A DNA stretch of 64,000 bases from Myxococcota bacterium. GTDB lineage: Bacteria > Myxococcota_A > SURF-8. Below, piece by piece: positions 8,378 to 42,937 of the stretch. Both the position numbers and the translations under genes were made by a program. The notes under the pieces were generated by a model that was not told where the DNA came from, made no database searches, and worked only from the letters and a program-made list of their open reading frames with translations. The DNA is taken from contig OZ223209.1 in the NCBI GenBank assembly GCA_965140415.1, positions 4,448,001 through 4,512,000 on the forward strand, read 5' to 3'. How positions within the stretch are numbered: position 1 is the stretch's first letter; the number at the start of each line of letters is the position of its first letter.

Positions 8378-8583
8378 AACTCCTTAAACGATTTCTTTTC
8401 GAACGAATTCAAACCAGCAGCATCCTAGCAGATCGGTCTTCGGAATCAAGATTTCCTTGTTCCGAATCTCCTACAATCGGGTATGCGAGTTCTTTTTCTG
8501 GACTTTCCAAGACCTACGAATAGAATGAGATGCGTTATGCAAGCGTTGGTTGATTTGCTTACCGCCCGGATAACAAATAGAGA

Positions 8584-8985: not shown

Positions 8986-9104
8986 GCTTCGTCCATTCTC
9001 CCAAGAATCATCAAGTAAAACATTCTCCCGGTAGGATTCAATATCCGAGCCGGTAAGAATTGAAGGTTTCTTTCCATTCACCACGAGCCCAATGGAACAA
9101 CCCG

Positions 9105-9611
9105 ATGTCGGATTCAAAGAAGAACAGATTCGGGGGCGTTTTGATTTTTTCTGCGCTCCTGCTCGTTCCTCTTGCGGCAGTGGCAGGCTGGATCGTTTTC
9201 AAGAATCAAGACCCGTCTGACGTCGAGATGAAAACCATCGAGCGCTGGCGCAATAGTGAAGTAAAAACCGTAGCTTCCGACTGGAGTTCGGGTGAAGACA
9301 CCTACGAACGCTTCTGTAGTTACAAGCCCGATGGGCAACTCGTTGGATGCTGGATCGAAAAGAACGGTTCACCCTGGAGCGGCAACATGGTGAGTTGGTA
9401 TCAGATTCACACGAAAGCCAAGCCGGACCGGGGTTACGGCATTCCGAAAGCGATTCAATCCTATGAAGAAGGTACGCCACATGGGACGTGGCAGTCCTTC
9501 TACGTTACCGGAGCCGTGATGACGGAAGTGGATATTGAAAACGGAAATCGTATCGAAACGCGCATGTTTTCCCCGGATGGAAAATTGCTTAGACGCTTGA
9601 AGATGAAGTAA
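9105..9611 (+). CDS. Membrane-anchored MORN-variant repeat (YwqK-like) protein
   Basis: Single TM segment then repeats such as YEEGTPHGTWQSFYVTG and FSPDGKL. Confidence 0.65.
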   Translation: MSDSKKNRFGGVLIFSALLLVPLAAVAGWIVFKNQDPSDVEMKTIERWRNSEVKTVASDWSSGEDTYERFCSYKPDGQLVGCWIEKNGSPWSGNMVSWYQIHTKAKPDRGYGIPKAIQSYEEGTPHGTWQSFYVTGAVMTEVDIENGNRIETRMFSPDGKLLRRLKMK

Positions 9612-9625
9612 AGGGAATCAGGATC

Positions 9626-29554: not shown

Positions 29555-30277
29555 ATGGCCATAACCTTTCCCATTCTGATTATCACCGGACGCCCGGCAG
29601 CCGGAAAAAGCGAGGTCATCGACTTTCTCAAGCGTGTACCGGTCATCAAGCGCGCAGAGACTCTGCACATCGGTCCATTCGAAGAACTGGATGACTTCCC
29701 CTATCTGTGGGAAAAATTCGAAGAAGACGACATGTTGGAAAAAAGCGGTCGCGAGCGGCTGCATTCCGATTCGAAATATTATTTCAAAGACGAGTGGTTC
29801 TGGGATTTCATGATCGAAAAGATCAACCTGGAACTGCGCAAGAAAATGGCTAAAAAGCCCACACTGTTCGAAGACGGCAACACCGTCGTGATCGAATGGG
29901 CGCGTGGCGGTGAAAACGGAATCCGTCATTGCCTGGACGTGCATTGCGACGAAATCCTGGAACGCGCCGCCGTGATGTACATCGACGTGACCTACGAGGA
30001 ATCCGTACGCAAGAATCATCGCCGCGCCCGTCCGGGCGAGGAAGACAGCATTCTGTACCACTCGCTGCCCGACGAAAAAATGGACTTCTACTACAAAGTG
30101 AACGACTGGCAGGAAATCGCCGGGGATCAACTGGGCGGTTACATCGACGTGCGTGGCTTCAAGGTGCCTTATTCCGTGCTGCCCAACATGCCGGAAGTCA
30201 CCGATGCAGACGAAAAACTCGGTCCGGCGCTGGCGGAATCGCTCAAGCGCCTGTGGAAACTGTACACCGAGAAATGA
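29555..30277 (+). CDS. P-loop NTPase / nucleoside-kinase-like protein of unknown function
   Basis: Walker A GRPAAGKS; AAGGAG RBS; biased codon usage. Confidence 0.7.
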   Translation: MAITFPILIITGRPAAGKSEVIDFLKRVPVIKRAETLHIGPFEELDDFPYLWEKFEEDDMLEKSGRERLHSDSKYYFKDEWFWDFMIEKINLELRKKMAKKPTLFEDGNTVVIEWARGGENGIRHCLDVHCDEILERAAVMYIDVTYEESVRKNHRRARPGEEDSILYHSLPDEKMDFYYKVNDWQEIAGDQLGGYIDVRGFKVPYSVLPNMPEVTDADEKLGPALAESLKRLWKLYTEK

Positions 30278-30307
30278 TTGGCCCCTTTACGGGGCTCGCC
30301 ACGGGAG

Positions 30308-30342
30308 ACGGCGGCTCGCAAGGGTCGCCGTTTTCCCTTTTT
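30308..30342 (+). terminator. Rho-independent terminator
   Basis: ACGGCGGCT...GGTCGCCGT stem followed by TTTCCCTTTTT. Confidence 0.65.
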
Positions 30343-30386
30343 AGGGTATTCGCTTTGCTCGCTAAAAAATTCCCATGGAGGAATGA

Positions 30387-32030
30387 ATGTTCAAGAATCG
30401 CTGCATTCATGTGTTGCTGATGCTCGTTGTTCTGTCGGGGCTACTCGTTTCCTGCGGGAAAACCAATCCTGACGAAAGCAACGGCGATTCGGATATCGAT
30501 TCTACAACAGACGGTGACATGGAATCCGGCGAGCAGGAAGAAGTGGAACTCGTTCAAATCGAGCGACTGGAACCGTTTCGTCCGCAACTGCATTTTTCGC
30601 CCCTATCCGGCTGGATGAACGATCCCAACGGCTTGATTTATCATGAAGGTGAATTTCATCTGTTCTACCAGTTCGGTCCAGAAAGCCTGCTGCTCTCTCC
30701 CATTCACTGGGGCCACGCCGTAAGCCGGGATCTGTTCCATTGGGAGGATCTTCCCATCGCCCTGTATCCGGACGACACCTTCGGCAAGGTGTATTCGGGC
30801 AGTTCCATCACCGACCTGGAAAACCGCAGCGGTCTATGTGAAATCGATGGCGAGCAAGATGCCTCCTGCCTGATCGCCATCTTCACCCATGCGGGCGGCG
30901 ACATCGGTGGGCAGAAACAGAGTCTGGCCGTCAGTCGCGACCGGGGCCGCAATTTCACGATGTACGAAGGCAACCCGGTGCTTACCGCACCGGATGGACA
31001 GGCGGATTTCCGCGATCCGAAAGTGTTTTTCCACGAGCAAAGCGACCGCTGGATCATGCCCTTGGCCGAAGGGGACCGTATCGGTTTCTACGCCTCGGAA
31101 AATCTGAAAGATTGGACTTGGCTCAGCGATTTCGAAAAGCAAAGCGGCGATGATACCGGCATGTGGGAATGCCCCGATCTGTTTCCCTTGTCCATTCAGG
31201 GCGATTCAAGTCAACGCAAATGGGTGTTACTGGTCAGCGTCTTTTCTGGCGGCCCGCAAGGCGGCTCCGGCGTGCGCAGTTTCATCGGGGAATTCGATGG
31301 CACCACCTTTACCTGTGAGTCGGAACGAGTCGAACCGGGCTGGCTGGACTGGGGCAGCGATTTTTACGCCTGGCAGTCTTTCGCCGATGCTTCCAATGAG
31401 CGGCGCATCGGGCTGGCCTGGATGAACAACTGGAGCTATGCTCCATCCATTCAAAGCGTCCCCTGGCAGGGAGCGATGAGTTTACCCAGAGAATTGACGC
31501 TCATTGATTCCGGTCAAGGAAAGTGGTCACTACGTCAATCTCCGGTAGCGGAATTTGAAAACCTTTCGGCAAACACACAGCTTGAACTACAAAATGACAC
31601 GTTGTCGGAATCGGAACCCATCGTTCTGGACGGATCGAAAAGCTTGGACATTCAACTTCAAATGGAACAAAGCGGGGAGGAACTGATTCTCTCTGTCGAA
31701 TCGAATGGTGAAACGCAGGCACAATTGACAGTGAACACCTCAAGCCAAACGCTTATTTTCGAACGGCAACAACCAAACGACCTTGACGCTCCATCAAGCT
31801 TCGCGGGACAGCATGAAGCCCCATTGTCTTCCAATTCGAAAAGCTACAGCTTGCGCGTGATTCTGGATCGTTCTTCGTTGGAAGCATTCATCAATGACGG
31901 TGAACTGGCGCTGACCGAACAGATTTTCCCGGACGAGGGCGAAAAGCGCGTCCGCATCGCCACAAAAGGCGGGGATGCCTCCGTCACAAAGCTTACGGTT
32001 CGAGAAATCGATTCGGTCTGGTTGCGTTAA
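30387..32030 (+). CDS. Glycoside hydrolase family 32 (levanase/beta-fructofuranosidase) lipoprotein
   Basis: WMNDPNG, WGHAVS, FRDPKV, MWECPDLF catalytic motifs; lipobox LVSC. Confidence 0.92.
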   Translation: MFKNRCIHVLLMLVVLSGLLVSCGKTNPDESNGDSDIDSTTDGDMESGEQEEVELVQIERLEPFRPQLHFSPLSGWMNDPNGLIYHEGEFHLFYQFGPESLLLSPIHWGHAVSRDLFHWEDLPIALYPDDTFGKVYSGSSITDLENRSGLCEIDGEQDASCLIAIFTHAGGDIGGQKQSLAVSRDRGRNFTMYEGNPVLTAPDGQADFRDPKVFFHEQSDRWIMPLAEGDRIGFYASENLKDWTWLSDFEKQSGDDTGMWECPDLFPLSIQGDSSQRKWVLLVSVFSGGPQGGSGVRSFIGEFDGTTFTCESERVEPGWLDWGSDFYAWQSFADASNERRIGLAWMNNWSYAPSIQSVPWQGAMSLPRELTLIDSGQGKWSLRQSPVAEFENLSANTQLELQNDTLSESEPIVLDGSKSLDIQLQMEQSGEELILSVESNGETQAQLTVNTSSQTLIFERQQPNDLDAPSSFAGQHEAPLSSNSKSYSLRVILDRSSLEAFINDGELALTEQIFPDEGEKRVRIATKGGDASVTKLTVREIDSVWLR

Positions 32031-32052
32031 GGTTGGAGATGCGCTCTTGCGA

Positions 32053-32871
32053 TTACGGTGCCGCCAGTTTGGCCGTCAACGCCGTTACCTGTTCCAGGGC
32101 TTTTTTCGTTTGATCCGGAACGCGTTGCAGGTTTTTCACCAACTCATCTATCGTGTCGGTTGCGATCGGCAGTTTCACCGCTAATTTCCCACTAAGCAAC
32201 AACGGCAGACGCATGGAAAGATCTTCTCCCTGCTTGGCCAGTTCCTGAACCTGCCCACCCAAAGGATACAACACCGCCATCAAAGCCATCATGCGCTTCT
32301 GCGCTTCACCTTTGTCAAGTGTCCCTGAAGCCACGGCCACCTGGGTTTTGGCTAAAAGGTAACGGCTGAAACCGAAAGTTCCGACAGCCAAGGTGGCTTT
32401 CCGCAGGAACTCGTCCACTTCGGGAACCTGGCAGGCTAGATAGCTCAACGGATTTTCTTTGTACGGATCGTTTTCCGTATCGGCATATTGTGCCAACATG
32501 GGATTGATTTCCTTAGAGGGAATCACGACTTCCTGCTCGGTTTTCGTTTCCGCTTTTTCAGCGATAGGCGCCGCTACTACTTCCGGCTTTGCTTCCGGTT
32601 GTGGTGCAGGTTTTTCCGCTTCGGGAGTAGCAGTCGCAACAGGTTCAACCGCCGCTTCTGCCGGCGCGCTTTCCGGTTCTGCGGCGGATTCCTGTTCCGC
32701 TTGTTTCGTTTCGGCGGCAGGTTCAGGCGCTGCGACAGGCTGCGTTAATACACTCGGCTCCGGTTGCGGTTTGGCCGCTTCCTGCTCGATCGTTTCGAAA
32801 AAGCTCGCCGAAGCGAAGCGAGGCATAGCGAGTACGGAAACAACTAGCAACGCAACATACAAGCGTCTCAT
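32053..32871 (-). CDS. Hypothetical secreted protein with Pro/Ala/Glu-rich linker
   Basis: Signal peptide, low-complexity linker, helical C-terminal domain; GGAGGG RBS. Confidence 0.7.
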   Translation of the reverse strand: MRRLYVALLVVSVLAMPRFASASFFETIEQEAAKPQPEPSVLTQPVAAPEPAAETKQAEQESAAEPESAPAEAAVEPVATATPEAEKPAPQPEAKPEVVAAPIAEKAETKTEQEVVIPSKEINPMLAQYADTENDPYKENPLSYLACQVPEVDEFLRKATLAVGTFGFSRYLLAKTQVAVASGTLDKGEAQKRMMALMAVLYPLGGQVQELAKQGEDLSMRLPLLLSGKLAVKLPIATDTIDELVKNLQRVPDQTKKALEQVTALTAKLAAP

Positions 32872-33237
32872 GGACTATCTCCCTCCAAAGTCAAGAACCT
32901 TACGTGCGACTATCCTAGCCTAAGTCGTCGATTGGAGCAACAGGTATTGGAAATTCCATCTTGTTGGGCAATACCATGAATTGGGTGAATGACAAGAATA
33001 TTTATGTTATTATTTAAGCGGTGAGATTGAATCGCTCATTTTCAACTCGAATCCTGACTCGTCAAATGGTCCACACAACGGGTGGCGCGGCAAGTATAAG
33101 TTTGTGTAACTTAGTCCGCTTTTCAAACAATGCAGCCACCAGTCTGCCACAACTCAGAAAACTCATAACTTACCTGCCAACAGAAGCGGCGGAGCGGTTT
33201 GTCCTGAATCGGCTCAAAGAAGCCGGTGGAGGGGCAT

Positions 33238-33283
33238 AAAATGGAAAACTCCAGCGCATCTCATGAGAAAGTTGCGCTGGAGT
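33238..33283 (-). terminator. Original terminator of the tRNA operon, displaced by island insertion
   Basis: 11-bp stem ACTCCAGCGCA (33248-33258)/TGCGCTGGAGT (33273-33283) with a minus-strand U-rich tract, immediately outside the left att core. Confidence 0.75.
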
Positions 33284-33285
33284 AT

Positions 33286-33297
33286 AACAGTTGGCGA
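33286..33297. repeat. Attachment-site core, tRNA-distal junction
   Basis: AACAGTTGGCGA, identical to 42857-42868. Confidence 0.85.
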
Positions 33298-33434
33298 ACG
33301 ACAAGACGCTGACTTGGAAACAGATTGACGACTGGTTAGACAGCATGGAGATGCTCAAGGCATCTCTTTTCGAAGCCAAAAACTGCCATGATTTCTGGCA
33401 CCTAATCACCGAACAACAGGAAGCGAGGGGATAA
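33297..33434 (+). other. Detached in-frame 3' segment of the serine integrase gene (45 codons plus stop)
   Basis: Joining at the repeat gives ...CYEQLA|NDKTLTWKQIDDWLDSMEMLKASLFEAKNCHDFWHLITEQQEARG* with no internal stop. Confidence 0.75.
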
Positions 33435-33736
33435 AGCAATGGACAAGTGTGTCCTGGAGATAGAAACGGACACCTGAATTGAAAAACCGCCCTTGCAGGG
33501 GCGGCTTACAAAACATCAACCCCGGGTATGGAGATGACGTCATGGATATCTGTAGTGTAACCAACCGCATTGACCTCGTCAAGATTTTCATCGCGCCCAT
33601 TTCCACATCCGCTTCAAGACCCCCTTGCAGCCCAGTATGGCTTCGGAGATCACCGGACTCCTGAACCATGGTGTCACCCGTCACCCATAAATAGGCGGGG
33701 TATATAGAAACTTTTAACGATTCTGGAGGTCATGCC

Positions 33737-34432
33737 ATGGAGATTAAGAGAAAATCAGCGTTCGACTTTCCGTCCGACAACGAAGCCCGCGCAGATGAAC
33801 TGCGCCACATCGGTTTTGACAGACTCGCAAATATGATTGCTGACTGTAAGCCCGGCTGGTTCTGCAGACAGCGACTCTGTCCGACCTGCGGCCCGTTCTA
33901 CGCAGCGATCAATGCGGGCAAAGTCAGAGTGAAGGTACTGGAGATGCGGTGGCCGCACACCTATATGCTGACACTCCGGTCGAAGCATCTATGGGATTTG
34001 AAAGCGACCGTCGAGGAGTTTCGAGCCTGTCTTCGCAAGTTGAGAGTCCGGAAATACTGGAAACAGCATGTGCGTTCGGGAGCCGGTGCCATTGAGGTAA
34101 AGTTATCGAACGACCGCAGGGCCTGGGTGGTTCATAGCCACTTTGTTCTCGATGTCCTCGATCCCACCTTCGATGTCGAACTCATCGATGAATATTGGCG
34201 GAAATACACCAATGGCCGTGGTTCTTTCATGCGGCAGACCGGTAACCGGGTCGTCATGGAAAACCTGACCGCACTGGCCTCCTACAACGCGAAGGCCGAT
34301 ACCTGGTGCCCACCTCCCGGCGCCTTGTATCCGGACGAACTGCGGCATCTCATTCGTGCGATTAAAGGGAAGCAGCTGCCAATTCTCTTCCCTTCTCGAC
34401 GGAAGAGGAAGCCCCACTCGTCGGAGAAGTAA
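33737..34432 (+). CDS. Rolling-circle replication initiator (HUH, Rep_1/pC194-like)
   Basis: Cys cluster CRQRLCPTC, motif I MLTL, GAIEVK, HUH motif HSHFVL, motif III YNAK; GGAGG RBS. Confidence 0.8.
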   Translation: MEIKRKSAFDFPSDNEARADELRHIGFDRLANMIADCKPGWFCRQRLCPTCGPFYAAINAGKVRVKVLEMRWPHTYMLTLRSKHLWDLKATVEEFRACLRKLRVRKYWKQHVRSGAGAIEVKLSNDRRAWVVHSHFVLDVLDPTFDVELIDEYWRKYTNGRGSFMRQTGNRVVMENLTALASYNAKADTWCPPPGALYPDELRHLIRAIKGKQLPILFPSRRKRKPHSSEK

Positions 34433-34730
34433 ACGTGCGGCCAACTGGCCTGTTCCACTATCCGGCCAGCGCGATTAGTGGGGTATTCACGATTCGTATG
34501 TGCGTTACCGCGCCAGTTCTTCGCAGCGCGGTAACGCACTACGGAACGGTGAAACGCCGCTGTGAGCGATGGAGTACGTGAACAGCGACTACGCCCTCTG
34601 AGAAAGCCATTGACATGCGACAAAAAAGTGTCCAAATCGGAGGAGGTAGGTTCATGAATTTGGAGGAAATCCAACTTAACACCACGATAACACTAACAAT
34701 ATCTCATATTCTGAAACCCTCACGCATTTG

Positions 34731-34784
34731 CTGCGACGTCGGTTTTTCAACTGCGACGTCGGCACAATCACCCAGCGACGTCGG
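34731..34784. repeat. Three iteron-like copies of C(T/A)GCGACGTCGG
   Basis: Copies at 34731, 34751 and 34773 with palindromic core CGACGTCG. Confidence 0.7.
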
Positions 34785-35395
34785 TGCTCGCATTCTCCTA
34801 GCCCTATCCGGTTTTCGATTCCAGCCCCATAGGGGACCCAGACCCCGCCCAGCATTAAAACCATTCGGGGTGCTGGCCACCGACAATTACGACAGCCGTC
34901 TTGTTGGGTGCTATTCGTCAAACAGAATCATGTTTTTACCACTCGGGTTCGTTCGTTAATACCTCGACCTGCGTCAATTTGGTTGGCGTATTTCTCTATG
35001 GCGACCAGCGGAAAAAACGTTCGGGCCAGGAAAATTGGGGTTCCAATATTTTTCGGGGTGTTTTTCGGGAACCGTTCGGGTCATCCGGGACAACTATGCA
35101 AGATATCAATGGATTTCGCTATAAGGATGATAGTGAAAGTGGTTGCCCTTTCACTGATCCTGGCCGGTCGACAGCTGAACTTTTCCAGGTTGTCGCGTTC
35201 GCCCGGACGTCCCGGATCAGGGTGATTCGCTCCTCGTAGGTCTTATACCACAACGCTTACCTGAATTTTAGGACTGCGACCGACCGCTCGTCTTTCGCTA
35301 GCCGGACCGATACCCAAACCACCGCCCACATGGCGGCGACGCCGCGTGGGACGGGCGAGGTCTCCGTGTGCGTCGAACACGACAAGGAGGCCCCG

Positions 35396-36091
35396 ATGGA
35401 AACCTGTATCCAACCCCAACAACCCAGCCAGCCCCTTCCGATGTCCCACGAGCAAATCAACACTACCTTCACCACCATGATCGCCGACGGCATCTTCAAT
35501 CCGATCAAGCGCCACCTGGGCGATGCGTTCGATGCCGAAGACAGATTCCAGGAAGCCCTGTGCATCATCTACGATGATTACCGCAGCGCCGCCGAGCGTG
35601 GCAAGCCGACAGATAGAGCCGCCCTGGTCTTTGGTTTGAAGTTGAAAGCCTTCGACGTGACCCACCGCTTCACCCGAACCGGCCACGGTCGCCGCAGGGA
35701 CGTGATGGGCGCGCCGGCCTGTGTCCTCGACGGGATTCAGGTCTTGCGCTTCGATGGCCTGGTCGAAGACGAAGACGGACCCTACGACGATCCCGGTGTG
35801 ACCCGGGATAACCCCATGAGCTTCGTCAACGAACTTTCCATGCGGCAGACGGCGGATGTCGAGGACCGGATCAACTCCGCTCTCGACCTTGACGCCTGGT
35901 TGGCCGACTTGGACCCGACCGACAGTGACATCCTGCAAGGCCGCATGGAAGGCCGCGCCGGAACGGAGATCGCCGAAATGGTCGGCATGAGCATGACCTA
36001 TTTCTATCAGCGCTTGAAGACGCTCGGTCGGAAGCTGGCCAAGGACGCCGGGATCATGGCCTACCTCGAACCCCAGCCGGGAGTCGCGTAG
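35396..36091 (+). CDS. Sigma-70 region 4-like HTH protein (ECF-sigma-like, mobile-element type)
   Basis: AAGGAGG RBS; DAEDRFQEA region-2-like segment; C-terminal LDAWLADLDP...GTEIAEMVGMS HTH. Confidence 0.65.
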   Translation: METCIQPQQPSQPLPMSHEQINTTFTTMIADGIFNPIKRHLGDAFDAEDRFQEALCIIYDDYRSAAERGKPTDRAALVFGLKLKAFDVTHRFTRTGHGRRRDVMGAPACVLDGIQVLRFDGLVEDEDGPYDDPGVTRDNPMSFVNELSMRQTADVEDRINSALDLDAWLADLDPTDSDILQGRMEGRAGTEIAEMVGMSMTYFYQRLKTLGRKLAKDAGIMAYLEPQPGVA

Positions 36092-36376
36092 TCGATGCGC
36101 CGCAACACCATCGACATCGTCGTCTGGATCATCCTGAAAAGCCTGAAAAACTGGCTCTGCAAGCACCGAAAATGACATTCCCCACCATGCCGCCCTGCCA
36201 CATCGCCCGCCGCACCATCCCCAGCCGCGCCCACGCGGCGGAAGAGGCCCTTTGGCTTCTTCTTTTAGCACAATTCGTATCTTGATTACATTTGAGTAAA
36301 CCGCCGAATTGTGCTAGCTTTTCCGCATTCGGGAAAGGAACTATTCTGTCAGAGACCGCTACGATCGTGAGGAGAT

Positions 36377-39300
36377 TTGGGTATGAAGCAGGCTGTTATC
36401 GTTGGGCTGATATGTTTGTTGCCATTGTTTAGTGCCGGTTGCTCGGGTTCTTCCGATGCAGGGGACGTCGCCAAAGCGCTTGAAGACCGCCTGACCGATG
36501 CCCTGGACTTCGAGGGCGGGTCGGCGGAAGACGGTGAGCCGCCCGAAGGCGAGAACACGCCTGATGCGCCGCAGATTTCGGGAATAGATGCACCGGATAC
36601 ACTTCATCCGGATGTTCCATTCGTGGTGCGGCTTTCGACTGACTATGCAGAGCCGCAGAACGTCGATAAAGCGATTGTCCATGTGGTGGGCGCTACGAAG
36701 TATCTGGTTGTGACGACCCCGCTGGTTGAAGCAAGTCATGGCTGGGTGATGAATCTTGCCGGTGTTTTGGGCGAGGAAATGTCCCTGGCGGGCGAGAGTT
36801 TCACGCTGGAATACGCGCTTCAAACCAGAGGCGGCGTAACCGGCGCGTACAAGAGAAAAGAGTTGGATATCCCTGAAGAGGACGCCGAACCGGACTGCGA
36901 CTCCGGTCCCTGCTGCAACGGCGGTGAATGGATCGAGGACGGCGGTGCGTGCACCGAGGGCGATGCTTTCGCTTGCACGCGGGATGCCTGCACGGCAAAT
37001 CATGCTTGCGAATCGACGCTGGCAGCGGACCGATGCCTGATTGACGATACCTGCTACACCTCCGGCGATGTGAAGCCGGACAACGAATGCCAGACCTGTC
37101 AGCCGGAGACGGCGACGGATATCTTCAGCGCGGTGGCCGACGGGACGGCCTGCGATGCGGGGAGTGGTGAAGGGTCAGGCCAGTGCCAGACGGGCGAGTG
37201 TGTCTTTTCCGATACCTTCATGAACGGTCGCTTGCATGAGTCGCTTGAGCCGGAGCAGGCACAGGAAGTGGCGGGTGATCCGCCTGCGGGTGGGGATGAT
37301 CCGCAAAGCTTCCCGCAGATTACCGATTTATCGGCCCCGGCGACACTCTATCCTGGGTCGAGTTTCGAAGTGACGCTGTTTACCGATTTCGCCACTCCGG
37401 ATGCGATCGATGGAGCGTTGCTGCAGGTTTCCGGTGCGCCGGGTTATTATCGGATTACGGGCGAAACAACGGCGTTGGGTGATCGCGCCTATCTCACGAT
37501 CAGCGGCCTGCTACTTGATATCGACGATCTACCGGAGCACAGCTTTACTCTGGCCTTTGCGCTGACGGCAGGCGAGGGCGTGGTGGGCGGCTATGCAGAG
37601 GCAACGATACAGTTGATCCCTGCTGCGCCGCAATGCGAGTCCGGCCCGTGCTGCAACGGTGGCGGATTGATGCCGAACGGGTCGTTTTGTCTGGATGACG
37701 ACCCCTGTACCTATGACGACGCCTGCAACGAGCAGGGAGCCTGTGCGGGCACGCCGATCACCTGTGAGGATGACCCATCGATCTGCGGGGTCAATCGCGC
37801 CTGCAACGGAACGGCCACTTGCGACGAAAGCTATCCAGGTAATGAAACAGAATGTGACGATGGTGAACCCTGCACATATGATGACGTCTGCGACGGTGGG
37901 GGCGGGTGCGCGGGCACAAGCTACGGTTGCAACGACCATGGGGACTGTGACGGGGAGGGCGCATGCGAGTGTGACGATGGTTACGATGGCGCAAGCTGCG
38001 ATCAGTGCGCCGATGGATACGAAGGTTACCCGGACTGCGTTTCGATTCAGAATTTTCTTGACAGCTTGGCTGCATCAGCGAGTCAAAGTATCCGTGAGAT
38101 CGATGGGGTCGCCGCAATGGATGGATCGGAGGAGGAAGTTATTGGTGGTCTGGCGACAGTTAAAGCCATTGGGTATGCGTACTGTGAACCAGACAACTAC
38201 TATGAGGGACCTGAAGCCGACATGTCGCTACCTCTGTGTCGTTATGGCTGTGATCAGCTGCCTGCCCTGGAGATCACATTGACCGATCAAGCCGCTGGAC
38301 TCGTCGATGTTTCCCTTCAGGCATCTGCGTTTTACGTGGATTCGTATTGGGAAATACCGACGAGGTGTGATTGCTATAGTTTGACAACCACTTCATCAGT
38401 CTCCGCCACCGGAACATTGGTTGATTTTCCAGACAATCCAAAGCTCTATCGTAATGCGGGTACAAATATGTCAGAGATGGGAAGTTTCGAGTTAGATTGC
38501 GAGGGTGTATGCGGAACATTGGTACCCAGTTTGTCTGGAGTCATGCAAGGACTGTGGAACGGTATTCTCGACGATGGCTTGCAACAATTGCTTGACGCAC
38601 TTGTTTTTACTCCAGTGTGTGAGGAAGGCCAGATCGAATACCCGGTCGGCTCCTTTACTTGCATCGACGACCCTTGTGATCCAGATCCGTGCAACGAACA
38701 TGGAAGCTGCGACAATTCAAGCGGGGAGGCGGTGTGCACTTGTGACAATGATAATATGAACGAAGATTGCTCAGCCTGTGCAGACGGTTTCATCGGCTAT
38801 CCGGATTGTATAGCTATCGGCACGTTTATTCCCATCACGGCCGGCGCCTTCTGGATGGGCTCGCCGGATGGAAGCTGCCCTGGCGGCTATCCAGGAGATT
38901 GCTCCGAAGCCGAGCCGGGGCGGTATTCGGATGAAGAACTTCACGAAGTGACATTGACCTATGATTTCGAGTTGCAGGCGTATGAGTTGACACAGGGGGA
39001 ATGGACGGCGTTGATGACGTGGAATCCGAGCAGCTTCAGCACCTGTGATGGCGGCGATGGTAGCACGTGTCCGGTGGAAAGCGTCTCCTGGTTTGATGTG
39101 TTGGCCTACGCGAACGAGTTATCGTCGGATGCGGGTCTGACGCCCTGTTATGTGTTTTCGAACGTGACGTGCGAGGAAGGCGGGAGCGTGGGCGCGGACT
39201 ACATGCAGTGCATGAACGCGATTCAGGGCGGTATTGATGATGCAACGATTACTCTGGCGGGCGGCGCGGTAAAGCCTCAGGATTGCGAAGGGTATCGGCT

Positions 39301-39748
39301 CCCCACTGAGGCGGAATGGGAGTATGCGATACGGGCCGGGAATGAATACACGGCGTTCTACCAGAGCGATGGGAACGATGGGACGATCAATGCTTCGACG
39401 ATGAGCACGTGTAGTTCATTGGACAGTAATCTGGATCAGATCGCGGTTTACTGTGCGAACGATCCCAACGGCACGGCTCCTGTGGGCACAAAGGAGGCGA
39501 ACGCGTGGGGCTTGTACGATATGAGCGGCAACGTGTATGACTGGGTCTGGGACTGGTATCAGGACTCTTATGAGAACGATGTGGCAACTGACCCGACAGG
39601 TCCGACGACACCAGGCTCGGGCCGCGTCCTACGTGGCGGCGTCTGGGGCGGCGACGCGCGGTACTGCCGGTCGGCGGGCCGCGGCAACCGCGCTCCCGGC
39701 GTTCGCAACGACCGCCTTGGCGCCCGCCTCTCCAGGTCTAGCCCTTGA
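36377..39748 (+). CDS. Modular surface lipoprotein with duplicated beta domain, Cys/EGF-like repeats and C-terminal FGE-sulfatase (C-type lectin fold) domain; probable DGR target
   Basis: Lipobox SAGC; FWMGSP, PVESVSWFD, GYRLPTEAEWEYA, NAWGLYDMSGNV.DW, RVLRGG.W...RSA.R.......LGARL. Confidence 0.88.
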   Translation: MGMKQAVIVGLICLLPLFSAGCSGSSDAGDVAKALEDRLTDALDFEGGSAEDGEPPEGENTPDAPQISGIDAPDTLHPDVPFVVRLSTDYAEPQNVDKAIVHVVGATKYLVVTTPLVEASHGWVMNLAGVLGEEMSLAGESFTLEYALQTRGGVTGAYKRKELDIPEEDAEPDCDSGPCCNGGEWIEDGGACTEGDAFACTRDACTANHACESTLAADRCLIDDTCYTSGDVKPDNECQTCQPETATDIFSAVADGTACDAGSGEGSGQCQTGECVFSDTFMNGRLHESLEPEQAQEVAGDPPAGGDDPQSFPQITDLSAPATLYPGSSFEVTLFTDFATPDAIDGALLQVSGAPGYYRITGETTALGDRAYLTISGLLLDIDDLPEHSFTLAFALTAGEGVVGGYAEATIQLIPAAPQCESGPCCNGGGLMPNGSFCLDDDPCTYDDACNEQGACAGTPITCEDDPSICGVNRACNGTATCDESYPGNETECDDGEPCTYDDVCDGGGGCAGTSYGCNDHGDCDGEGACECDDGYDGASCDQCADGYEGYPDCVSIQNFLDSLAASASQSIREIDGVAAMDGSEEEVIGGLATVKAIGYAYCEPDNYYEGPEADMSLPLCRYGCDQLPALEITLTDQAAGLVDVSLQASAFYVDSYWEIPTRCDCYSLTTTSSVSATGTLVDFPDNPKLYRNAGTNMSEMGSFELDCEGVCGTLVPSLSGVMQGLWNGILDDGLQQLLDALVFTPVCEEGQIEYPVGSFTCIDDPCDPDPCNEHGSCDNSSGEAVCTCDNDNMNEDCSACADGFIGYPDCIAIGTFIPITAGAFWMGSPDGSCPGGYPGDCSEAEPGRYSDEELHEVTLTYDFELQAYELTQGEWTALMTWNPSSFSTCDGGDGSTCPVESVSWFDVLAYANELSSDAGLTPCYVFSNVTCEEGGSVGADYMQCMNAIQGGIDDATITLAGGAVKPQDCEGYRLPTEAEWEYAIRAGNEYTAFYQSDGNDGTINASTMSTCSSLDSNLDQIAVYCANDPNGTAPVGTKEANAWGLYDMSGNVYDWVWDWYQDSYENDVATDPTGPTTPGSGRVLRGGVWGGDARYCRSAGRGNRAPGVRNDRLGARLSRSSP
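39614..39745 (+). other. Putative DGR variable region (VR) with GC-rich 3' end
   Basis: Non-conserved positions are almost all NNC/NNT codons (GGC, GTC, GGC GGC GAC, TAC, GGC, GGC AAC CGC, GTT, AAC GAC CGC), as expected from mutagenised AAC/AAT codons. Confidence 0.7.
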
Positions 39749-39758
39749 CCCCTTTCGC

Positions 39759-39920
39759 CCTTTGCCCTTTGGGCAAAGGCTATAATGGGTGCACGATAGT
39801 GCGACCGAATTGGTCCGAGCGGGAACGGAGAGAGCAAGCGAGCCGAAGCGCAAGCCGGCGAAGCGAGCGAACGAAGTGAAGCTCGGGCCGGGGAGTCCAG
39901 AGGGGCTTTAGCCCCTTTGG
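39759..39920 (+). other. Short-loop hairpins downstream of the VR (cruciform candidates)
   Basis: CCTTTGCCC-TTT-GGGCAAAGG (39759-39779) and CCAGAGGGGC-TTTA-GCCCCTTTGG (39897-39920). Confidence 0.6.
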
Positions 39921-40583
39921 TGGGTCCAGGGCCCTTCGGCAAGCTCAGGATAAACTCCGACCGGGTCGCCATAGGTTCCGGACCCGCGCCTGACGGCGAA
40001 CACTGTCAGGACAAATACACCCACCCCGGCGGCGGCAAGTAGGCGGTTTTTGACAACTGCTCGAACGTGGCCGCCGGGGACTATTACGAACTCGGACTAC
40101 AGCGGAGTCTCGCTCAGGCATGACGACGAAGGGGTGATGGGAACCGGGTGCATGGTTCACGAAGTACACCGGCCTCTCGTTGTTCGTCCAGGTAAGAAGG
40201 TGGAACCACCCGGAGTTCGACAACCCGGAGACCGGAGACCATGAAGGCATAAAACCGGAGTGAATCCCGTAAAATGCGGTAATTGTTTATGAATTTCGGC
40301 TTTCACGATGAACTTTTGGCTTGACAAAACGGCCAAATGTAAAATAGGCTTACGCTCAGTTCATTCTCATGCCGCGATTTGTAAGGGTAAAGACACAGAA
40401 AAACGACCATGTACCGCGAAGTGAAAGAAACCGGCTGGTATAAGATAGCCAAGTAACCAAGCACTAGAATTCGCGAACGGTCAACCCCGTCACCCACCGC
40501 ATGAATGCAACCTTGGGAACCCGCCGAACATAATCGCATACATTCCAACTTGAGCAGTCCTGATCGAAGGTCAGGGGCTGCGA

Positions 40584-40853
40584 GTGTATGTTCGGAGGAA
40601 CCCAATGGAGGCCCTTACAAAGAAGCGCGGTCTGAAGCCGCCTACCATCACCACAAAAACCCGTAACCTGACCATCGTGGGGTATATCGTCCCACAGGGT
40701 GAACTACCCCCAAACCCCCGTCATCCCGACCCATACATCCCTGTTGAACAACGGCACGACCGGTTCCTGAAGGAACTGGCCGGTGCGTTGGCGGAGATTG
40801 TCCCGGCCAAGGAAGAGGACGACGGAAAGTATTACCGACCAGGGCGCGCATGA
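40584..40853 (+). CDS. Small hypothetical protein of the element
   Basis: GGAGG RBS before an internal ATG (MEAL...); first of three closely spaced ORFs before the integrase. Confidence 0.55.
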   Translation: MYVRRNPMEALTKKRGLKPPTITTKTRNLTIVGYIVPQGELPPNPRHPDPYIPVEQRHDRFLKELAGALAEIVPAKEEDDGKYYRPGRA

Positions 40854-40863
40854 GTAGGATGTC

Positions 40864-41178
40864 ATGCTTAGCCTTGATGGTTGCAGAAAGTACCTCGAAG
40901 AAGAGGATGCCGCGGTCTCGGACGAGGAACTCGCTGAAAAACGAGACTCAATGTATCAGCTGGCTCGTCTGCTATTGTCCGCACTCCCGGTTCCCGGTCA
41001 TACGTCCGAGGCTCCAGTGGTATCCGATCATTTCGAGGAAATCTTACGATCCTTGTCACCAGCGAAGCAGGGCGCGCTGAAGGACCGTGCGGCTTTCCTG
41101 GTGGCTGAAGTCGGCCTCCCGCCCGATGAAGCGGAGCGGGTGGCCATAACCGAGTACATCAAAGAACAGGAGAATTGA
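40864..41178 (+). CDS. Small hypothetical protein of the element
   Basis: 104 aa; C-terminal DRAA...GLPPDEAERVA motif resembles small phage/island proteins. Confidence 0.65.
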   Translation: MLSLDGCRKYLEEEDAAVSDEELAEKRDSMYQLARLLLSALPVPGHTSEAPVVSDHFEEILRSLSPAKQGALKDRAAFLVAEVGLPPDEAERVAITEYIKEQEN

Positions 41179-41180
41179 TC

Positions 41181-41372
41181 ATGACAAACCGTTCATCCAT
41201 GAATCCGGAAGGTAACAAGGTAGGCAAGGGAACAGCTCCCATGTCGAGCAAGGTTGAGGTTGCTATGAAAAAGGTCCAGGATGCTGTCGCTCAGTTGGAG
41301 TTCGACATCCGGTCTGATAGAATAAAGGCGGGACTCGCTGCGAAACGGGCCCGTGAGAAAGGGAACTCATAA
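41181..41372 (+). CDS. 63-aa protein resembling serine-recombinase helix E
   Basis: AGGAG RBS; AMKKVQDAVAQLEFDIRSDRIKAGL aligns without gaps to AMENMAATFAQLDNDLRSDRTKTGM of the adjacent integrase. Confidence 0.65.
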   Translation: MTNRSSMNPEGNKVGKGTAPMSSKVEVAMKKVQDAVAQLEFDIRSDRIKAGLAAKRAREKGNS

Positions 41373-41391
41373 GCATCTGAGGAACTGACCC

Positions 41392-42903
41392 ATGGAACGA
41401 GCCGTTATCTACTGCCGGGTATCATCGAAGGAACAGGTGGACAATTACAGTCTTACCACCCAGGAACGCCTGTGCCGGGAATACTGCGAGCGCAACGGGT
41501 ACGAGGTGGACAAGGTCTTCGTAGAGGAAGGCGAATCGGCTAAGACCGCCAACCGTCGTTCCCTCCTTCGCATGCTGGACTACTGCGGCAAGGCGAAGGG
41601 CCGTATTAGTGTTCTGGTCGTCTACCAACTGAGTCGCTTTGCACGCCAAGCCAAAGATCATCACGCAGTGAAGGCCAAGCTGGCCAGCTTCGGAATCACC
41701 CTTCGATCAGCAACAGAACCCATCGACGATACTCCGATGGGGAAGGCGATGGAAAACATGGCCGCCACCTTCGCCCAGCTTGATAACGACCTACGTTCCG
41801 ACCGGACCAAAACCGGCATGCTCGAAGCTGCCATGAATGGCCGGTGGGTGCACCAAGCCCCAATCGGCTACCTCAATGGAAAGAAGGGAGGACCGAGCCT
41901 TGTTCATGATCCTGAGCGTGCCGACCTTGTCCGCAAAGGCTTCGAGTTGTTCGCCACACGCATGTACTCCAAGCAGCAGGTGGTGGACAAGATCAATGCC
42001 CTCGGCTTCACAAGCCCCAAGGGCGGCAAGCTCAACCCGCAGACCTTCGGGCGCATGCTCCGCAACCCGATCTATGCTGGTCGTGTGATCCTGGAGAGCT
42101 TCCAGATCGACACCAAGGGCGACTTTGAGCCCATCGTACCCGAAGACCTCTTTCGGCAGGTACAGGCGATTCTGGACGGTCGGACGTACCAGAATGTCCC
42201 CCACCACCGGAACAACAAGGACTTCCCTCTCCGGCGCTTTACCCGTTGCGCAAAGTGCGGAACACCACTCACGGGATCGTGGAGTACGGGCCGTGGGAAG
42301 AAGTATGCCTACTACCGTTGCCGGAATACCAAGTGCAAGGCCGTCAACATCCGCAAGGAGAACATGGAAGAACTGTTCCTGGAGCAGATCAACCGCATCA
42401 AGCCCAGGATGGAGTATATGAGGCTCTTCCGCGAGATCGTAAAGGATGTCTACCGGGAGCGGATGTCGGAAGGGACGGAGCACAATAAACGGCTGCAAGC
42501 CAACCTGCGAAAGGTGAAGCAGAAAAAAAGCCGCCTTCTCGATCTGCGCATCGAGGGAGATATCGACCATGCCTCTTACCAGAGTAAGAAGATAGAACTG
42601 GATGCCGAGATCGAGCTTGTGGAGCGGGAACTTGGCCGCCTGAACTCCGAAACGATGGATATCGACTCGGCACTGGACTTCGCCGAGCGTATCGTCATGA
42701 ATGCGGGTAAGCTGTGGGAAGCACTGGAGTTTGATGAAAGGGTGAAACTACAGGAGCTCTTATTCACAGGTGGGATCGACTTCGACGGCGAAAAATTTGG
42801 AACCATAAAAACAAACAGCATTTTCAGTATGTTAACCAAAAATGCTGCCTGCTATGAACAGTTGGCGACCCCAGCGGGAATTGAACCCGCGTCGCCGGCG
42901 TGA
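41392..42903 (+). CDS. Large serine recombinase (integrase); ORF ends antisense within tRNA-Glu
   Basis: AVIYCRVSSKEQ catalytic serine motif, SRFAR, recombinase domain (LRNPIYAG), zinc ribbon CAKCG...YYRC....C, coiled coil. Confidence 0.95.
   Translation: MERAVIYCRVSSKEQVDNYSLTTQERLCREYCERNGYEVDKVFVEEGESAKTANRRSLLRMLDYCGKAKGRISVLVVYQLSRFARQAKDHHAVKAKLASFGITLRSATEPIDDTPMGKAMENMAATFAQLDNDLRSDRTKTGMLEAAMNGRWVHQAPIGYLNGKKGGPSLVHDPERADLVRKGFELFATRMYSKQQVVDKINALGFTSPKGGKLNPQTFGRMLRNPIYAGRVILESFQIDTKGDFEPIVPEDLFRQVQAILDGRTYQNVPHHRNNKDFPLRRFTRCAKCGTPLTGSWSTGRGKKYAYYRCRNTKCKAVNIRKENMEELFLEQINRIKPRMEYMRLFREIVKDVYRERMSEGTEHNKRLQANLRKVKQKKSRLLDLRIEGDIDHASYQSKKIELDAEIELVERELGRLNSETMDIDSALDFAERIVMNAGKLWEALEFDERVKLQELLFTGGIDFDGEKFGTIKTNSIFSMLTKNAACYEQLATPAGIEPASPA
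42857..42868. repeat. Attachment-site core, tRNA-proximal junction
   Basis: AACAGTTGGCGA; its last 6 nt are the complement of the tRNA-Glu 3' end TCGCCA. Confidence 0.85.
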
Positions 42904-42937
42904 AAGGCCGGTGTCCTAACCCCTAGACGATGGGGTC
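42863..42937 (-). tRNA. tRNA-Glu (TTC)
   Basis: GACCCCATCGTCTAGGGGTTAGGACACCGGCCTTTCACGCCGGCGACGCGGGTTCAATTCCCGCTGGGGTCGCCA folds as a cloverleaf with encoded CCA. Confidence 0.97.

What the first reader, a model, noticed from the sequence alone, without database searches (positions are those of the whole stretch)
36377..39920. Orphan DGR target lipoprotein carried on the integrative element
Seen: the last ~44 codons of the FGE/C-type-lectin domain switch to a pattern where invariant residues (RV.RGG.W...A..CRSA.R....PG.R...LG.RL) alternate with NNC/NNT codons, followed by short-loop hairpins. No AAC-rich template repeat, avd or reverse transcriptase is visible in the 64 kb. Known: DGRs diversify this position of CLec/FGE domains by adenine mutagenesis, and remote targets acted on in trans exist. 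Inference: a small mobile element may carry a hypervariable surface adhesin/receptor and borrow host DGR machinery, or it holds a frozen target from a deleted cassette.
Basis: partly seen in the sequence, partly recalled or inferred. Interest (0 to 1): 0.8.

Follow-up and report, generated by a model that had tools for sequence, protein, structure and literature searches.

The report
Leftover DGR target on integrative element
A large surface lipoprotein gene on a small tRNA-integrated mobile element still carries the hypervariable tail written by a diversity-generating retroelement, but the machinery that wrote it is missing from this genome, so the tail now looks frozen.

Summary
The 1123-aa lipoprotein ORF (36377-39748) ends in an FGE-sulfatase/C-type-lectin domain. 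Its last ~122 nt (39614-39735) are a genuine DGR variable repeat.

Against an AAC-rich template repeat found in a same-order genome (G002), the window's repeat differs at 25 of 34 template adenines but only 9 of 88 other positions (p=1.7e-11).

No template repeat, DGR-type reverse transcriptase, Avd or HRDC gene was found in the 5.98-Mb single-contig genome. Its only two reverse transcriptases are of other classes.

The window is colinear with the G002 cassette (target-VR-hairpins-HRDC-Avd-RT-TR-3' RNA element) on both sides. It lacks the ~2.2 kb holding HRDC, Avd, RT and TR. A second genome (G008) shows an independent deletion of the same core.

The gene lies in a ~9.6-kb element (33286-42868). 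The element has a Rep-like gene and a large serine recombinase, and sits at the 3' end of tRNA-Glu. A related element in G006 lacks this cargo.

Verdict: a frozen target left by a deleted DGR cassette. Borrowing a host DGR in trans is not supported. Leftover targets are already described in Treponema denticola, so this is a new member of a known kind. The conserved, Rfam-absent RNA element kept in the scar is a modest bonus.

The parts
33286..33297 (+). Left copy of the 12-nt direct repeat AACAGTTGGCGA (left junction of the integrative element)
   Evidence: Exactly 2 copies in the window, 0.01 expected by chance. Homology to the left end of the G006 element starts at 33286.
33737..34432 (+). 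Rep_1-like replication protein gene (231 aa)
   Evidence: Pfam Rep_1 E=1.7e-7, 31.4 bits, just under the curated cut-off of 33.2. About 48% aa similar to an ORF in the G006 element by tblastx.
35330..36091 (+). Element ORF of unknown function (253 aa)
   Evidence: No Pfam or PHROGs match. Its 5' part is conserved in the G006 element (35319-35401 at 78% nt; tblastx 40% over 72 aa).
36377..39748 (+). DGR-type target gene. It encodes a 1123-aa protein (1121 aa from the ATG at 36383) with a lipoprotein-like signal ending in Cys, EGF-like Cys-rich modules and a C-terminal FGE-sulfatase domain.
   Evidence: ORF. Pfam. The database's gene call is 1121 aa. The best solved relative is the Treponema denticola variable protein TvpA, 2Y3C, E=4.8e-34. 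The lipobox reading rests on the recalled PROSITE-type rule, not on a tool.
39614..39735 (+). Variable repeat (VR), now without a template
   Evidence: Versus TRa of G002: 25/34 adenine sites differ and 9/88 other sites differ. Third-codon-position identity to the two paralogous tails is 0.67-0.87 here, against mostly 0.3-0.7 in the rest of the domain.
39760..39778 (+). Hairpin/cruciform-type inverted repeat 12 nt after the stop codon
   Evidence: Identical sequence after the cassette-linked VR of G002, and one base different in G008:C470.
39897..39920 (+). Second hairpin (GC stem, 4-nt loop) in the conserved VR-downstream region
   Evidence: The stem is conserved and the loop differs in G002 and G008:C470.
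39931..39968 (.). Deletion junction. Colinearity with the VR-downstream region of G002/G008 ends near 39930, and colinearity with the sequence after the G002 template repeat resumes at 39969.
   Evidence: blastn: 38825-39778 matches L051:6340-7302, and 39969-40079 matches L051:9676-9785. Alignments.
39960..40090 (+). Conserved structured ~130-nt element that marks the 3' side of DGR cassettes in this order
   Evidence: 78% identical to the copy after the G002 TR. The same two-domain RNA fold in the window (-52.7 kcal/mol, z=-3.5) and in G002 (-58.7, z=-3.1). Covariance-model hit at 127 bits. No Rfam family.
40584..41372 (+). Three small element ORFs (89, 104 and 65 aa)
   Evidence: The 40840-41178 stretch is conserved in the G006 element. 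No Pfam or PHROGs match.
41392..42903 (+). Large serine recombinase (503 aa). Its last codons run into the tRNA-Glu gene.
   Evidence: Pfam Resolvase + Recombinase + Zn_ribbon_recom. PHROG integrase E=2.4e-104. 92% nt identical to the G006 copy.
42857..42868 (+). Right copy of the 12-nt direct repeat, overlapping the 3' end of tRNA-Glu(UUC) (42863-42937, minus strand)
   Evidence: In G004 and G005, homology to the tRNA region begins at 42857.

Best explanation
The gene encodes a cell-surface lipoprotein. Its C-terminal FGE-type C-type-lectin domain was once diversified by a diversity-generating retroelement of the HRDC-Avd-RT-TR type. In that system the template repeat (TR) is transcribed and copied into cDNA by a reverse transcriptase that misreads adenines. 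The cDNA then replaces the variable repeat (VR).

The VR, its GC-rich 3' end, the two downstream hairpins and the structured RNA element that normally follows the TR are all still present. The ~2.2 kb between them, which would hold HRDC, Avd, RT and TR, has been deleted. With no other DGR found in the genome, the VR is frozen in its last state. It has since drifted by ordinary mutation.

The target plus scar is cargo of a ~9.6-kb element integrated by a large serine recombinase into the 3' end of tRNA-Glu.

Shown:
- the adenine-specific signature
- no machinery found in the assembly
- colinearity on both sides of the gap
- the element boundaries

Inferred:
- that the gap is a deletion rather than an insertion in G002
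- that the protein is still made and useful as a fixed-specificity binder
- the surface location
For: (1) VR signature. The window's VR differs from G002 TRa at 25/34 adenine sites and 9/88 other sites (p=1.7e-11). As a positive control, G002's own adjacent VR differs at 21/34 and 0/88.

(2) A real cassette exists in the relative. L051 holds a 1306-aa target, then HRDC (E=1e-17), bAvd (E=5.9e-18), a 338-aa RT (RVT_1 E=6.7e-19) and the AAC-rich TR.

(3) Colinearity.
- Window 38825-39778 matches L051:6340-7302 at 77% over 972 nt.
- Window 39969-40079 matches L051:9676-9785, just after the TR, at 78%.
- Nothing in the window corresponds to L051 ~7480-9675.

(4) An independent parallel. In G008:C470 (same family) the same target-VR-hairpins are followed by a 5' fragment of HRDC. 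That fragment is fused to the last 38 nt of the 3' element, a different deletion of the same core.

(5) No machinery found in G000.
- The 2 RVT_1 hits are a group-II-like RT and a 780-aa RT, with QG..SP-type motifs rather than the LTSQ seen in the G002 RTs.
- bAvd and PF05635 give 0 hits.
- tblastn and blastn with the G002 HRDC, Avd, RT and TR find nothing beyond the VRs themselves.

(6) Two further relic VRs lie 388 kb away, in one 813-aa protein with two FGE domains. They share the pattern. 25 of 34 TR-adenine columns vary among the three copies, against 12 of 88 other columns (p=4.5e-10).

(7) The fold relative TvpA is a solved DGR variable protein.

(8) One 25,284-nt contig of run X1 spans the whole element with 0 differences. 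This is weak evidence, because contigs hide rare variants.
Against: - The cognate TR is unknown. 9 of 88 non-adenine positions differ from TRa, so either the lost template differed from TRa or the VR has drifted. Neither was shown.
- The 3' element is not strictly 'post-TR'. In G002:C4 it follows a second DUF1566-type target of an avd-TR-RT-target cassette. In G002:C1:2337075 it follows a DUF1566-type ORF with no RT nearby. In G005 a weaker copy (41.5 bits) lies in a non-DGR context. 'Target followed by the element' can therefore exist without a deletion.
- No remnant of HRDC, Avd or RT coding sequence is left in the window. The deletion is inferred from colinearity only.
- The assembly is one contig at 93.7% marker completeness. 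A plasmid or phage carrying a DGR would not be seen.
- Read-level variation could not be examined, because only contigs were served.
Confidence: 0.75

Rival explanations
1. The gene never had its own cassette on this element. It was a remote or terminal target, with the 3' element directly behind it as in G002:C4. A DGR elsewhere in an ancestral or donor genome diversified it. It became orphaned when that DGR was lost, or when the gene moved to a DGR-free host on the mobile element.
For: - The 3' element follows target genes, not a TR, in G002:C4 and at G002:C1:2337075.
- The target plus scar is extra cargo compared with the related G006 element.
- Outside the VR, the window's FGE domain is closer to the G002 cassette-linked target (79% aa) than to its own genome's paralogs (71-73%). 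This fits lateral arrival.
Against: - The ~180 nt after the stop are homologous to the region that leads into HRDC in both G002 and G008:C470. They are not like the short spacer seen after the DUF1566 targets.
- G008:C470 shows that core deletions of exactly this cassette do occur.
Confidence: 0.15
2. The VR is still diversified in trans by a DGR that is not in the assembly, for example on a plasmid, a phage or a co-resident strain. The target would then be live rather than frozen.
For: - The VR 3' end, the hairpin and the ORF are intact.
- Trans action on remote targets more than 100 kb away is documented (PMC5758913, passages read).
- TRa-type templates look well conserved across families. 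The G008:C470 VR has only 2/88 non-adenine differences from G002 TRa.
Against: - No RT, Avd, HRDC or TR was found in the 5.98-Mb contig.
- The three VR copies differ from one another at 12 of 88 non-adenine columns. A shared active template would erase such differences.
- One contig of X1 crosses the VR with no difference.
Confidence: 0.07
3. This is an ordinary FGE-sulfatase domain with no DGR history. The pattern would be the family's conserved C-terminal motif plus chance codon bias.
For: The invariant residues (RGG.W, CRSA.R, PG.R, G.RL) are also conserved in non-DGR FGE domains such as PvdO and the formylglycine-generating enzymes (alignments).
Against: - Variation is concentrated on template adenines (p=1.7e-11).
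- Third codon positions are more alike in the tail than in the rest of the domain.
- DNA-level homology extends to a cassette-linked VR, its hairpin and the cassette's 3' element.
Confidence: 0.02

Closest known systems
Leftover DGR target genes in Treponema denticola strains that lack the core DGR (Nimkulrat et al. 2016, PMC4891356; passages read)
   Same: - FGE-type variable proteins, mostly lipoproteins.
- VRs that differ from the TRs of DGR-bearing relatives mostly at template adenines.
- Neither RT nor TR in the same genome.
- Interpreted as remnants of lost core DGRs.
- HRDC-type cassette architecture (Architecture C in PMC5758913).
   Different: - Here the comparison is across families of one Myxococcota-like order, not across strains of one species.
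- The deletion scar can be mapped on both sides.
- The relic sits on a small serine-recombinase element at a tRNA gene.
Legionella pneumophila DGR with lipoprotein target LdtA inside an integrative and conjugative element (Arambula et al. 2013, as summarised in PMC5758913; passages read)
   Same: A mobile integrative element carries a surface lipoprotein whose C-terminal C-type-lectin-fold VR is DGR-diversified.
   Different: - The Legionella element carries the complete, active DGR.
- Its target is of the DUF1566 kind, not FGE.
- The element here is only ~9.6 kb, with no conjugation genes detected, and has lost RT and TR.
TvpA, Treponema denticola variable protein 1 (PDB 2Y3C)
   Same: Best solved relative by sequence (E=4.8e-34, query aa 34-304 of the 308-aa domain). 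The alignment runs through the VR.
   Different: The window protein has ~800 additional N-terminal residues with EGF-like modules. No structure was predicted here.
BPP-1 phage DGR target-site elements: IMH plus a hairpin/cruciform downstream of the VR (Guo et al. 2011, PMC3240598; abstract read)
   Same: A short inverted repeat lies just downstream of the VR and is conserved among homologous targets.
   Different: The loop is 3 nt here and the hairpin starts 12 nt after the stop. Its function was not tested. No IMH/IMH* pair can be defined without the cognate TR.

Membership tests
DGR variable (target) protein, FGE-type C-type-lectin fold | C-terminal FGE-sulfatase / CLec-fold domain carrying the variable residues | tested here: met
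   Pfam PF03781 E=3e-42 at aa 817-1118. TvpA 2Y3C E=4.8e-34.
DGR variable (target) protein, FGE-type C-type-lectin fold | The VR differs from a template repeat at template adenines and (almost) nowhere else | tested here: met
   Tested against a heterologous template (G002 TRa): 25/34 adenine sites versus 9/88 others, p=1.7e-11. The 9 non-adenine differences mean TRa is a relative of the true template, not the template itself.
DGR variable (target) protein, FGE-type C-type-lectin fold | Hairpin/cruciform-forming inverted repeat just downstream of the VR | tested here: met
   39760-39778, z=-2.9, identical after the G002 VR.
Complete diversity-generating retroelement | Cognate template repeat in the same genome | tested here: not met
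   blastn of the VR and of G002 TRa, plus gapless scans of both strands, found only the two paralogous VRs and other FGE tails.
Complete diversity-generating retroelement | DGR-clade reverse transcriptase | tested here: not met
   2 RVT_1 matches in 5.98 Mb. One is a 473-aa RT with weak RVT_N and GIIM hits. The other is a 780-aa RT of unknown class. The G002 DGR RT finds only the first, at 25-33% identity. That an SQ motif marks DGR RTs is recalled, not tested.
Complete diversity-generating retroelement | Accessory gene (Avd or HRDC) | tested here: not met
   PF05635 gives 0 matches and PF22296 gives 0 matches at E<=0.1. tblastn best E is 1.8 for Avd and 2.3 for HRDC.
Complete diversity-generating retroelement | Ongoing adenine-site variation in the population | tested here: inconclusive
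   Only Logan contigs were served. One X1 contig spans the VR with 0 differences, but contigs drop rare variants.
Integrative element with large serine recombinase at a tRNA gene | Resolvase + Recombinase + zinc-ribbon recombinase at one end | tested here: met
   (E=3e-35, 1.3e-13, 4.4e-11). PHROG integrase.
Integrative element with large serine recombinase at a tRNA gene | Defined junctions at a tRNA 3' end, with a related element at the same site in another genome | tested here: met
   12-nt repeat at 33286 and 42857. tRNA-Glu at 42863-42937. The G006 element shares the recombinase (92% nt) and the left end from 33286. No empty site was found in relatives within +/-1.5 kb.
Integrative element with large serine recombinase at a tRNA gene | Excision or a circular form | not tested
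   No joint across 33286/42868 was listed among the contigs. Contigs cannot show rare excision.

The most novel reading that the evidence does not exclude
The orphan is a portable plug-in target rather than dead DNA. The 9.6-kb element ferries a target that keeps its VR 3' end, its cruciform hairpin and the cassette's 3' RNA element. The VR would be rewritten again whenever the element lands in a cell with a TRa-type DGR. Targets and diversifiers would then circulate separately in these Myxococcota-like communities.

TRa-type templates seem conserved enough for this. The VR of G008:C470 differs from G002 TRa at only 2 of 88 non-adenine sites across families.

A linked reading is that the ~130-nt element is a previously undescribed RNA module of HRDC-type DGRs, analogous to the downstream RNA segment that the Bordetella enzyme needs.
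Probability: 0.1. Interest if true: 0.7.

Novelty: new member of a known kind. Interest (0 to 1): 0.4.

Why it matters
DGR targets can outlive their diversifiers and can travel on small integrative elements. A VR-like tail alone therefore does not show present hypervariation. Annotation pipelines that need RT plus TR will miss such relics, and pattern-only readers will over-call them.

The case gives a clean, two-sided deletion scar, and an independent second deletion in a relative. Together they suggest that cassette cores are lost repeatedly while targets are kept. This bears on the cost and benefit of keeping a mutator.

The conserved structured element at the 3' side of these cassettes has no Rfam family. 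It follows the TR in four RT-TR arrangements. It is a testable candidate for the RNA segment that primes or guides cDNA synthesis in HRDC-type DGRs, which are poorly studied.

Tried and rejected

- Read-level variation. The four runs were served as contigs only. The listed 'other letters' at 80% likeness come from paralogous FGE genes, not from VR variants. X2 is fragmentary, and a listed bin without cover (39740-40076) means nothing. No RNA holder was listed, so nothing can be said on expression.

- Empty attachment site. The window's left flank (30000-33400) was blasted against the tRNA-Glu loci of eight relatives. Only one 18-nt match came up, so no empty site was shown.

- Metagenome search for close relatives of the N-terminal 806 aa: 24 pattern matches, none confirmed.

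- Protein database. 1049 proteins had E<=1e-30 among 8000 scored. The best non-self hits were 64-75% identical, and no near-identical homologue with a different VR was found. No population-level VR comparison for this gene was therefore possible.

- Rfam on 39500-41500 at E<=1: no match.

- Covariation in the 3' element is weak. Only 1 of 22 predicted pairs has changes on both sides, because the five copies are too alike. The 5' hairpin differs in sequence between the window and G002 but folds alike in single-sequence folds.

- The covariance model found nothing at E<0.01 in 75 FGE-target loci from other phyla.

- The first gapless scan, scored as matches plus A-mismatches, was swamped by A-rich DNA and was discarded in favour of ranking by matches.

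- In one search the segment picked for the second G002 cassette target was the longest open frame rather than the trimmed domain. That row is not used.

- Literature. Searches for 'orphan' with 'variable repeat' and DGR returned 1 paper. DGR with Myxococcota returned 0 papers. I therefore found no prior description of DGRs in this lineage in the held library. Subscription journals are not covered.
Full report
THE OBSERVATION

The window holds a 1123-aa ORF at 36377-39748 on the plus strand. A public gene call starts it two codons later, at the ATG, giving 1121 aa. Pfam places an FGE-sulfatase domain at aa 817-1118 (E=3e-42). Weak EGF-like hits lie in the middle of the protein.

Invariant residues alternate with NNC/NNT codons. 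They are followed by two short-loop hairpins:
- 39760-39778, DNA fold -11.1 kcal/mol in its 51-nt context, z=-2.9.
- About 39897-39920, z=-1.1 in its 56-nt context.

IS IT A DGR VARIABLE REPEAT?

A blastn search of the tail against the whole genome gave 15 matches at E<=10. The genome is one contig of 5,975,757 bases, with 93.7% marker completeness. Three of the 15 matches are meaningful:
- the tail itself
- a site at 80% identity, 388 kb away
- a second site there at 73% identity

The two remote sites are the ends of two tandem FGE domains in one 813-aa ORF (L011:7753-10194).

Codon-wise comparison of the three domains shows two things. Outside the tail, third positions differ at 105-112 of about 258 codons. 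In sliding windows over the tail, third-position identity rises to 0.67-1.00, while first and second positions vary. The ratio of first-plus-second to third-position changes is 24:9 in the tail against 100:112 in the rest for window versus paralog 1 (Fisher p=0.008). The other two pairs give p=0.014 and p=0.17.

This is what a shared template that rewrites only certain codon positions would leave.

THE TEMPLATE EXISTS IN RELATIVES

Searching the ten genomes of the same order with the tail DNA gave matches in 9 of 10, counting G000. There were 26 matches in G002 and 10 in G008.

In G002 the best match lies at the end of a 1306-aa FGE protein. That gene is followed by:
- an HRDC gene (E=1e-17)
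- a bAvd gene (E=5.9e-18)
- a 338-aa reverse transcriptase (RVT_1 E=6.7e-19)
- an AAC-rich 122-nt repeat of the tail, here called TRa

G002's own VR differs from TRa at 21 of 34 adenines and at 0 of 88 other positions. That marks an intact or recently active DGR.

The window's VR (39614-39735) differs from TRa at 25 of 34 adenines and 9 of 88 other positions (p=1.7e-11). The two paralogous tails give 23/34 versus 5/88 and 24/34 versus 11/88. Among the three G000 copies, 25 of 34 adenine columns vary against 12 of 88 others (p=4.5e-10).

The closest solved structure by sequence is TvpA, the Treponema denticola DGR variable protein (2Y3C, E=4.8e-34).

THE MACHINERY IS ABSENT FROM THIS GENOME

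RVT_1 finds two genes in G000. One is a 473-aa protein with weak RVT_N and GIIM hits. The other is a 780-aa protein of unknown class. Both have QG..SP-type motifs, where the G002 DGR RTs have LTSQ. That this motif marks DGR RTs is my recollection, not a test.

Other searches also came up empty:
- PF05635 and PF22296 (bAvd) give no match at E<=0.1.
- tblastn with the G002 proteins gives best E=2.3 for HRDC and 1.8 for Avd. RT matches only the group-II-like RT, at 25% identity.
- blastn with TRa hits only the three VRs and one other FGE tail.
- Gapless scans of both strands find no AAC-rich partner.

Across the order, strong homologues of the G002 RT (E<=1e-45) occur only in G002 and G008. The weaker matches, at 27-34% identity, are to other RT classes. 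In total 6 of 10 genomes had some match at E<=1e-5.

THE SCAR

The window is colinear with the G002 cassette on both sides of a gap:
- 38825-39778 matches L051:6340-7302 at 77% over 972 nt.
- 39969-40079 matches L051:9676-9785 at 78%. That stretch begins 55 nt after TRa.

In alignments with G002 and G008:C470, homology after the stop codon runs through both hairpins to about 39930. At that point the relatives continue into HRDC and the window does not.

The window therefore lacks the equivalent of L051 ~7480-9675, which holds HRDC, Avd, RT and TR.

G008:C470, from the same family as G000, shows an independent version. The same target, VR and hairpins are followed by a 5' part of HRDC. That fragment is fused to the last 38 nt of the 3' element. 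Its VR differs from TRa at only 2 of 88 non-adenine sites.

THE 3' ELEMENT

The stretch 39960-40090 folds as RNA into a 5' hairpin plus a long GC helix that encloses a small hairpin (-52.7 kcal/mol, z=-3.5). The G002 copy adopts the same architecture although its 5' hairpin differs in sequence. Covariation support is weak, with 1 of 22 pairs changed on both sides. Rfam has no match.

A covariance model finds copies only in G000 (1), G002 (4) and G005 (1, 41.5 bits) among the ten genomes. It finds nothing at E<0.01 in 75 FGE-target loci from other phyla.

The contexts are as follows:
- It follows RT then TR in G002a, G002b, G008:C432 and one metagenome contig (L170).
- It follows a second DUF1566-type target in an avd-TR-RT-target cassette in G002:C4.
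- It follows a DUF1566-type ORF at G002:C1:2337075 with no RT nearby.
- It lies in a non-DGR context in G005.

So it marks the 3' side of DGR cassettes, but it is not strictly a post-TR element. This weakens the deletion reading a little and feeds the second rival.

The Bordetella enzyme needs RNA segments upstream and downstream of the template (abstract of 10.1101/2023.10.23.563531, seen in the listing). That makes a DGR RNA role plausible but untested.

THE MOBILE ELEMENT

tRNA-Glu(UUC) lies at 42863-42937 on the minus strand. A 503-aa large serine recombinase (Resolvase, Recombinase, Zn_ribbon_recom; PHROG integrase) ends inside it, at 42903.

A 12-nt repeat occurs exactly twice in the window, at 33286 and 42857. 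By chance 0.01 copies are expected.

G006, a different genus of the same family, has a related element at the same tRNA:
- the recombinase is 92% identical in nucleotides
- the small ORFs and part of ORF 35330-36091 are conserved
- it has a Rep-like ORF
- its left-end homology begins exactly at 33286

In G006 the homologue of ORF 35330-36091 lies about 1.2 kb from the small ORFs, with no FGE gene between them. The target plus scar, roughly 36100-40840, is therefore extra cargo in G000.

Outside the VR, the window's FGE domain is 79% identical to the G002 cassette-linked target. It is 71-73% identical to its own genome's paralogs and 63% to G008:C470. This fits arrival by transfer but does not prove it.

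The G002 cassette is itself flanked by the 3' part of a serine-recombinase ORF and by a tyrosine recombinase. No empty site was found in relatives.

MECHANISM AND STATE

When complete, the system would have transcribed TR plus flanking RNA and made adenine-mutagenised cDNA with RT, Avd and HRDC. It would then have replaced the VR, guided by the VR's 3' end and the hairpin. That hairpin is the kind of element shown to be needed in phage BPP-1 (abstract of PMC3240598).

Now, with no template or enzyme found, the VR is fixed. The 9 of 88 non-adenine differences from TRa, and the 12 of 88 non-adenine columns that vary among the three G000 copies, fit drift after loss. They would also fit a somewhat different lost template. 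I cannot separate the two.

The ORF is intact, so the protein may still serve as a binder of fixed specificity. Expression and surface location were not tested. One contig of run X1 crosses the whole element without a difference, which is weak evidence for a clonal VR.

COMPARISON WITH WHAT IS KNOWN

Leftover targets in strains without RT or TR are described for Treponema denticola. Their VRs differ from relatives' TRs mostly at adenines, and they include remnants of the core cassette (passages of PMC4891356).

The survey of Wu et al. covers the following (passages of PMC5758913):
- remote targets more than 100 kb away
- HRDC-type cassettes (Architecture C)
- FGE-type targets
- the Legionella DGR, which sits inside an integrative conjugative element and has a lipoprotein target

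This locus is thus a new member of a known kind: a decayed DGR. Its particulars are the Myxococcota-like host lineage, the small serine-recombinase carrier, the scar mapped on two sides, and the retained RNA element. The lineage is inferred from the closest genome contigs records, which are titled Myxococcota bacterium MAGs. My two searches found no paper on DGRs in that lineage.

VERDICT

- Observation: confirmed.
- Interpretation: supported in its 'frozen target from a deleted cassette' form.
- 'Borrowing host machinery': not supported.
- Interest: moderate-low (0.4).

Noticed in passing
window 39960-40090; also L057:1490-1620, L063:1490-1620 (-), L061:1445-1585, L064:1430-1565, L170:~1440-1600: A ~130-nt structured element with no Rfam family. 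It lies at the 3' side of DGR cassettes in this order. It comes directly after RT-TR in four loci, after DUF1566-type targets in two, and once (G005, weaker) in a non-DGR context.
   Followed up: partly
L168 (G008:C470), whole contig: An independent decay of the same cassette. Target-VR-hairpins are followed by a 5' fragment of HRDC fused to the last 38 nt of the 3' element. The VR differs from G002 TRa at only 2 of 88 non-adenine sites.
   Followed up: partly
L011:7753-10194 (G000:C1:4873752-4876193): An 813-aa protein with two tandem FGE domains, each ending in a relic VR. The first VR is internal to the protein and is followed directly by the second domain. No hairpin follows the second VR (-0.2 kcal/mol).
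   Followed up: partly
L166:10-5780 (G002:C4): A second DGR type in the relative: a DUF1566-ended target, an Avd-like ORF, TR, a 509-aa RT, a 148-aa DUF1566 target, then the 3' element. IS-type transposases lie just beyond.
   Followed up: partly
L055 (G002:C1:3236000-3246000): A degenerate cassette inside a DGR-bearing genome. The RT open frame is only 222 aa, and the adjacent VR differs from its own neighbouring TR at 21 non-adenine sites. Most VR-like tails in G002 also carry 7-17 non-adenine differences from either TR.
   Followed up: partly
window 42863-42903: The last ~13 codons of the serine recombinase ORF are encoded by tRNA-Glu gene sequence. Its C-terminus would therefore change on excision. 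The G006 element carries a 69-nt copy of this junction at its far end, against only 12 nt in G000.
   Followed up: partly
window 49639-50769: A further 376-aa FGE-sulfatase protein (E=4.1e-30) lies outside the element. At least six more FGE tails occur elsewhere in the genome (for example C1:3333857, 3338635, 5376980 on the minus strand). The one at 3333857 is VR-like.
   Followed up: no
L010:85-3335 (G000:C1:~3798300-3801550): A 780-aa reverse transcriptase of unknown class, with an overlapping 323-aa upstream ORF. It is not DGR-like and was not characterised.
   Followed up: no
L011:7110-7820: An ORF with three tandem ~38-aa repeats ahead of a C-terminal domain, just upstream of the double-FGE gene. 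Not analysed.
   Followed up: no
L051:1404-2852 (G002): In G002 a separate 482-aa lipoprotein gene upstream of the cassette target resembles the N-terminal part of the window protein (tblastx 40-47%). The window gene may therefore be a fusion or rearrangement of two modules.
   Followed up: no
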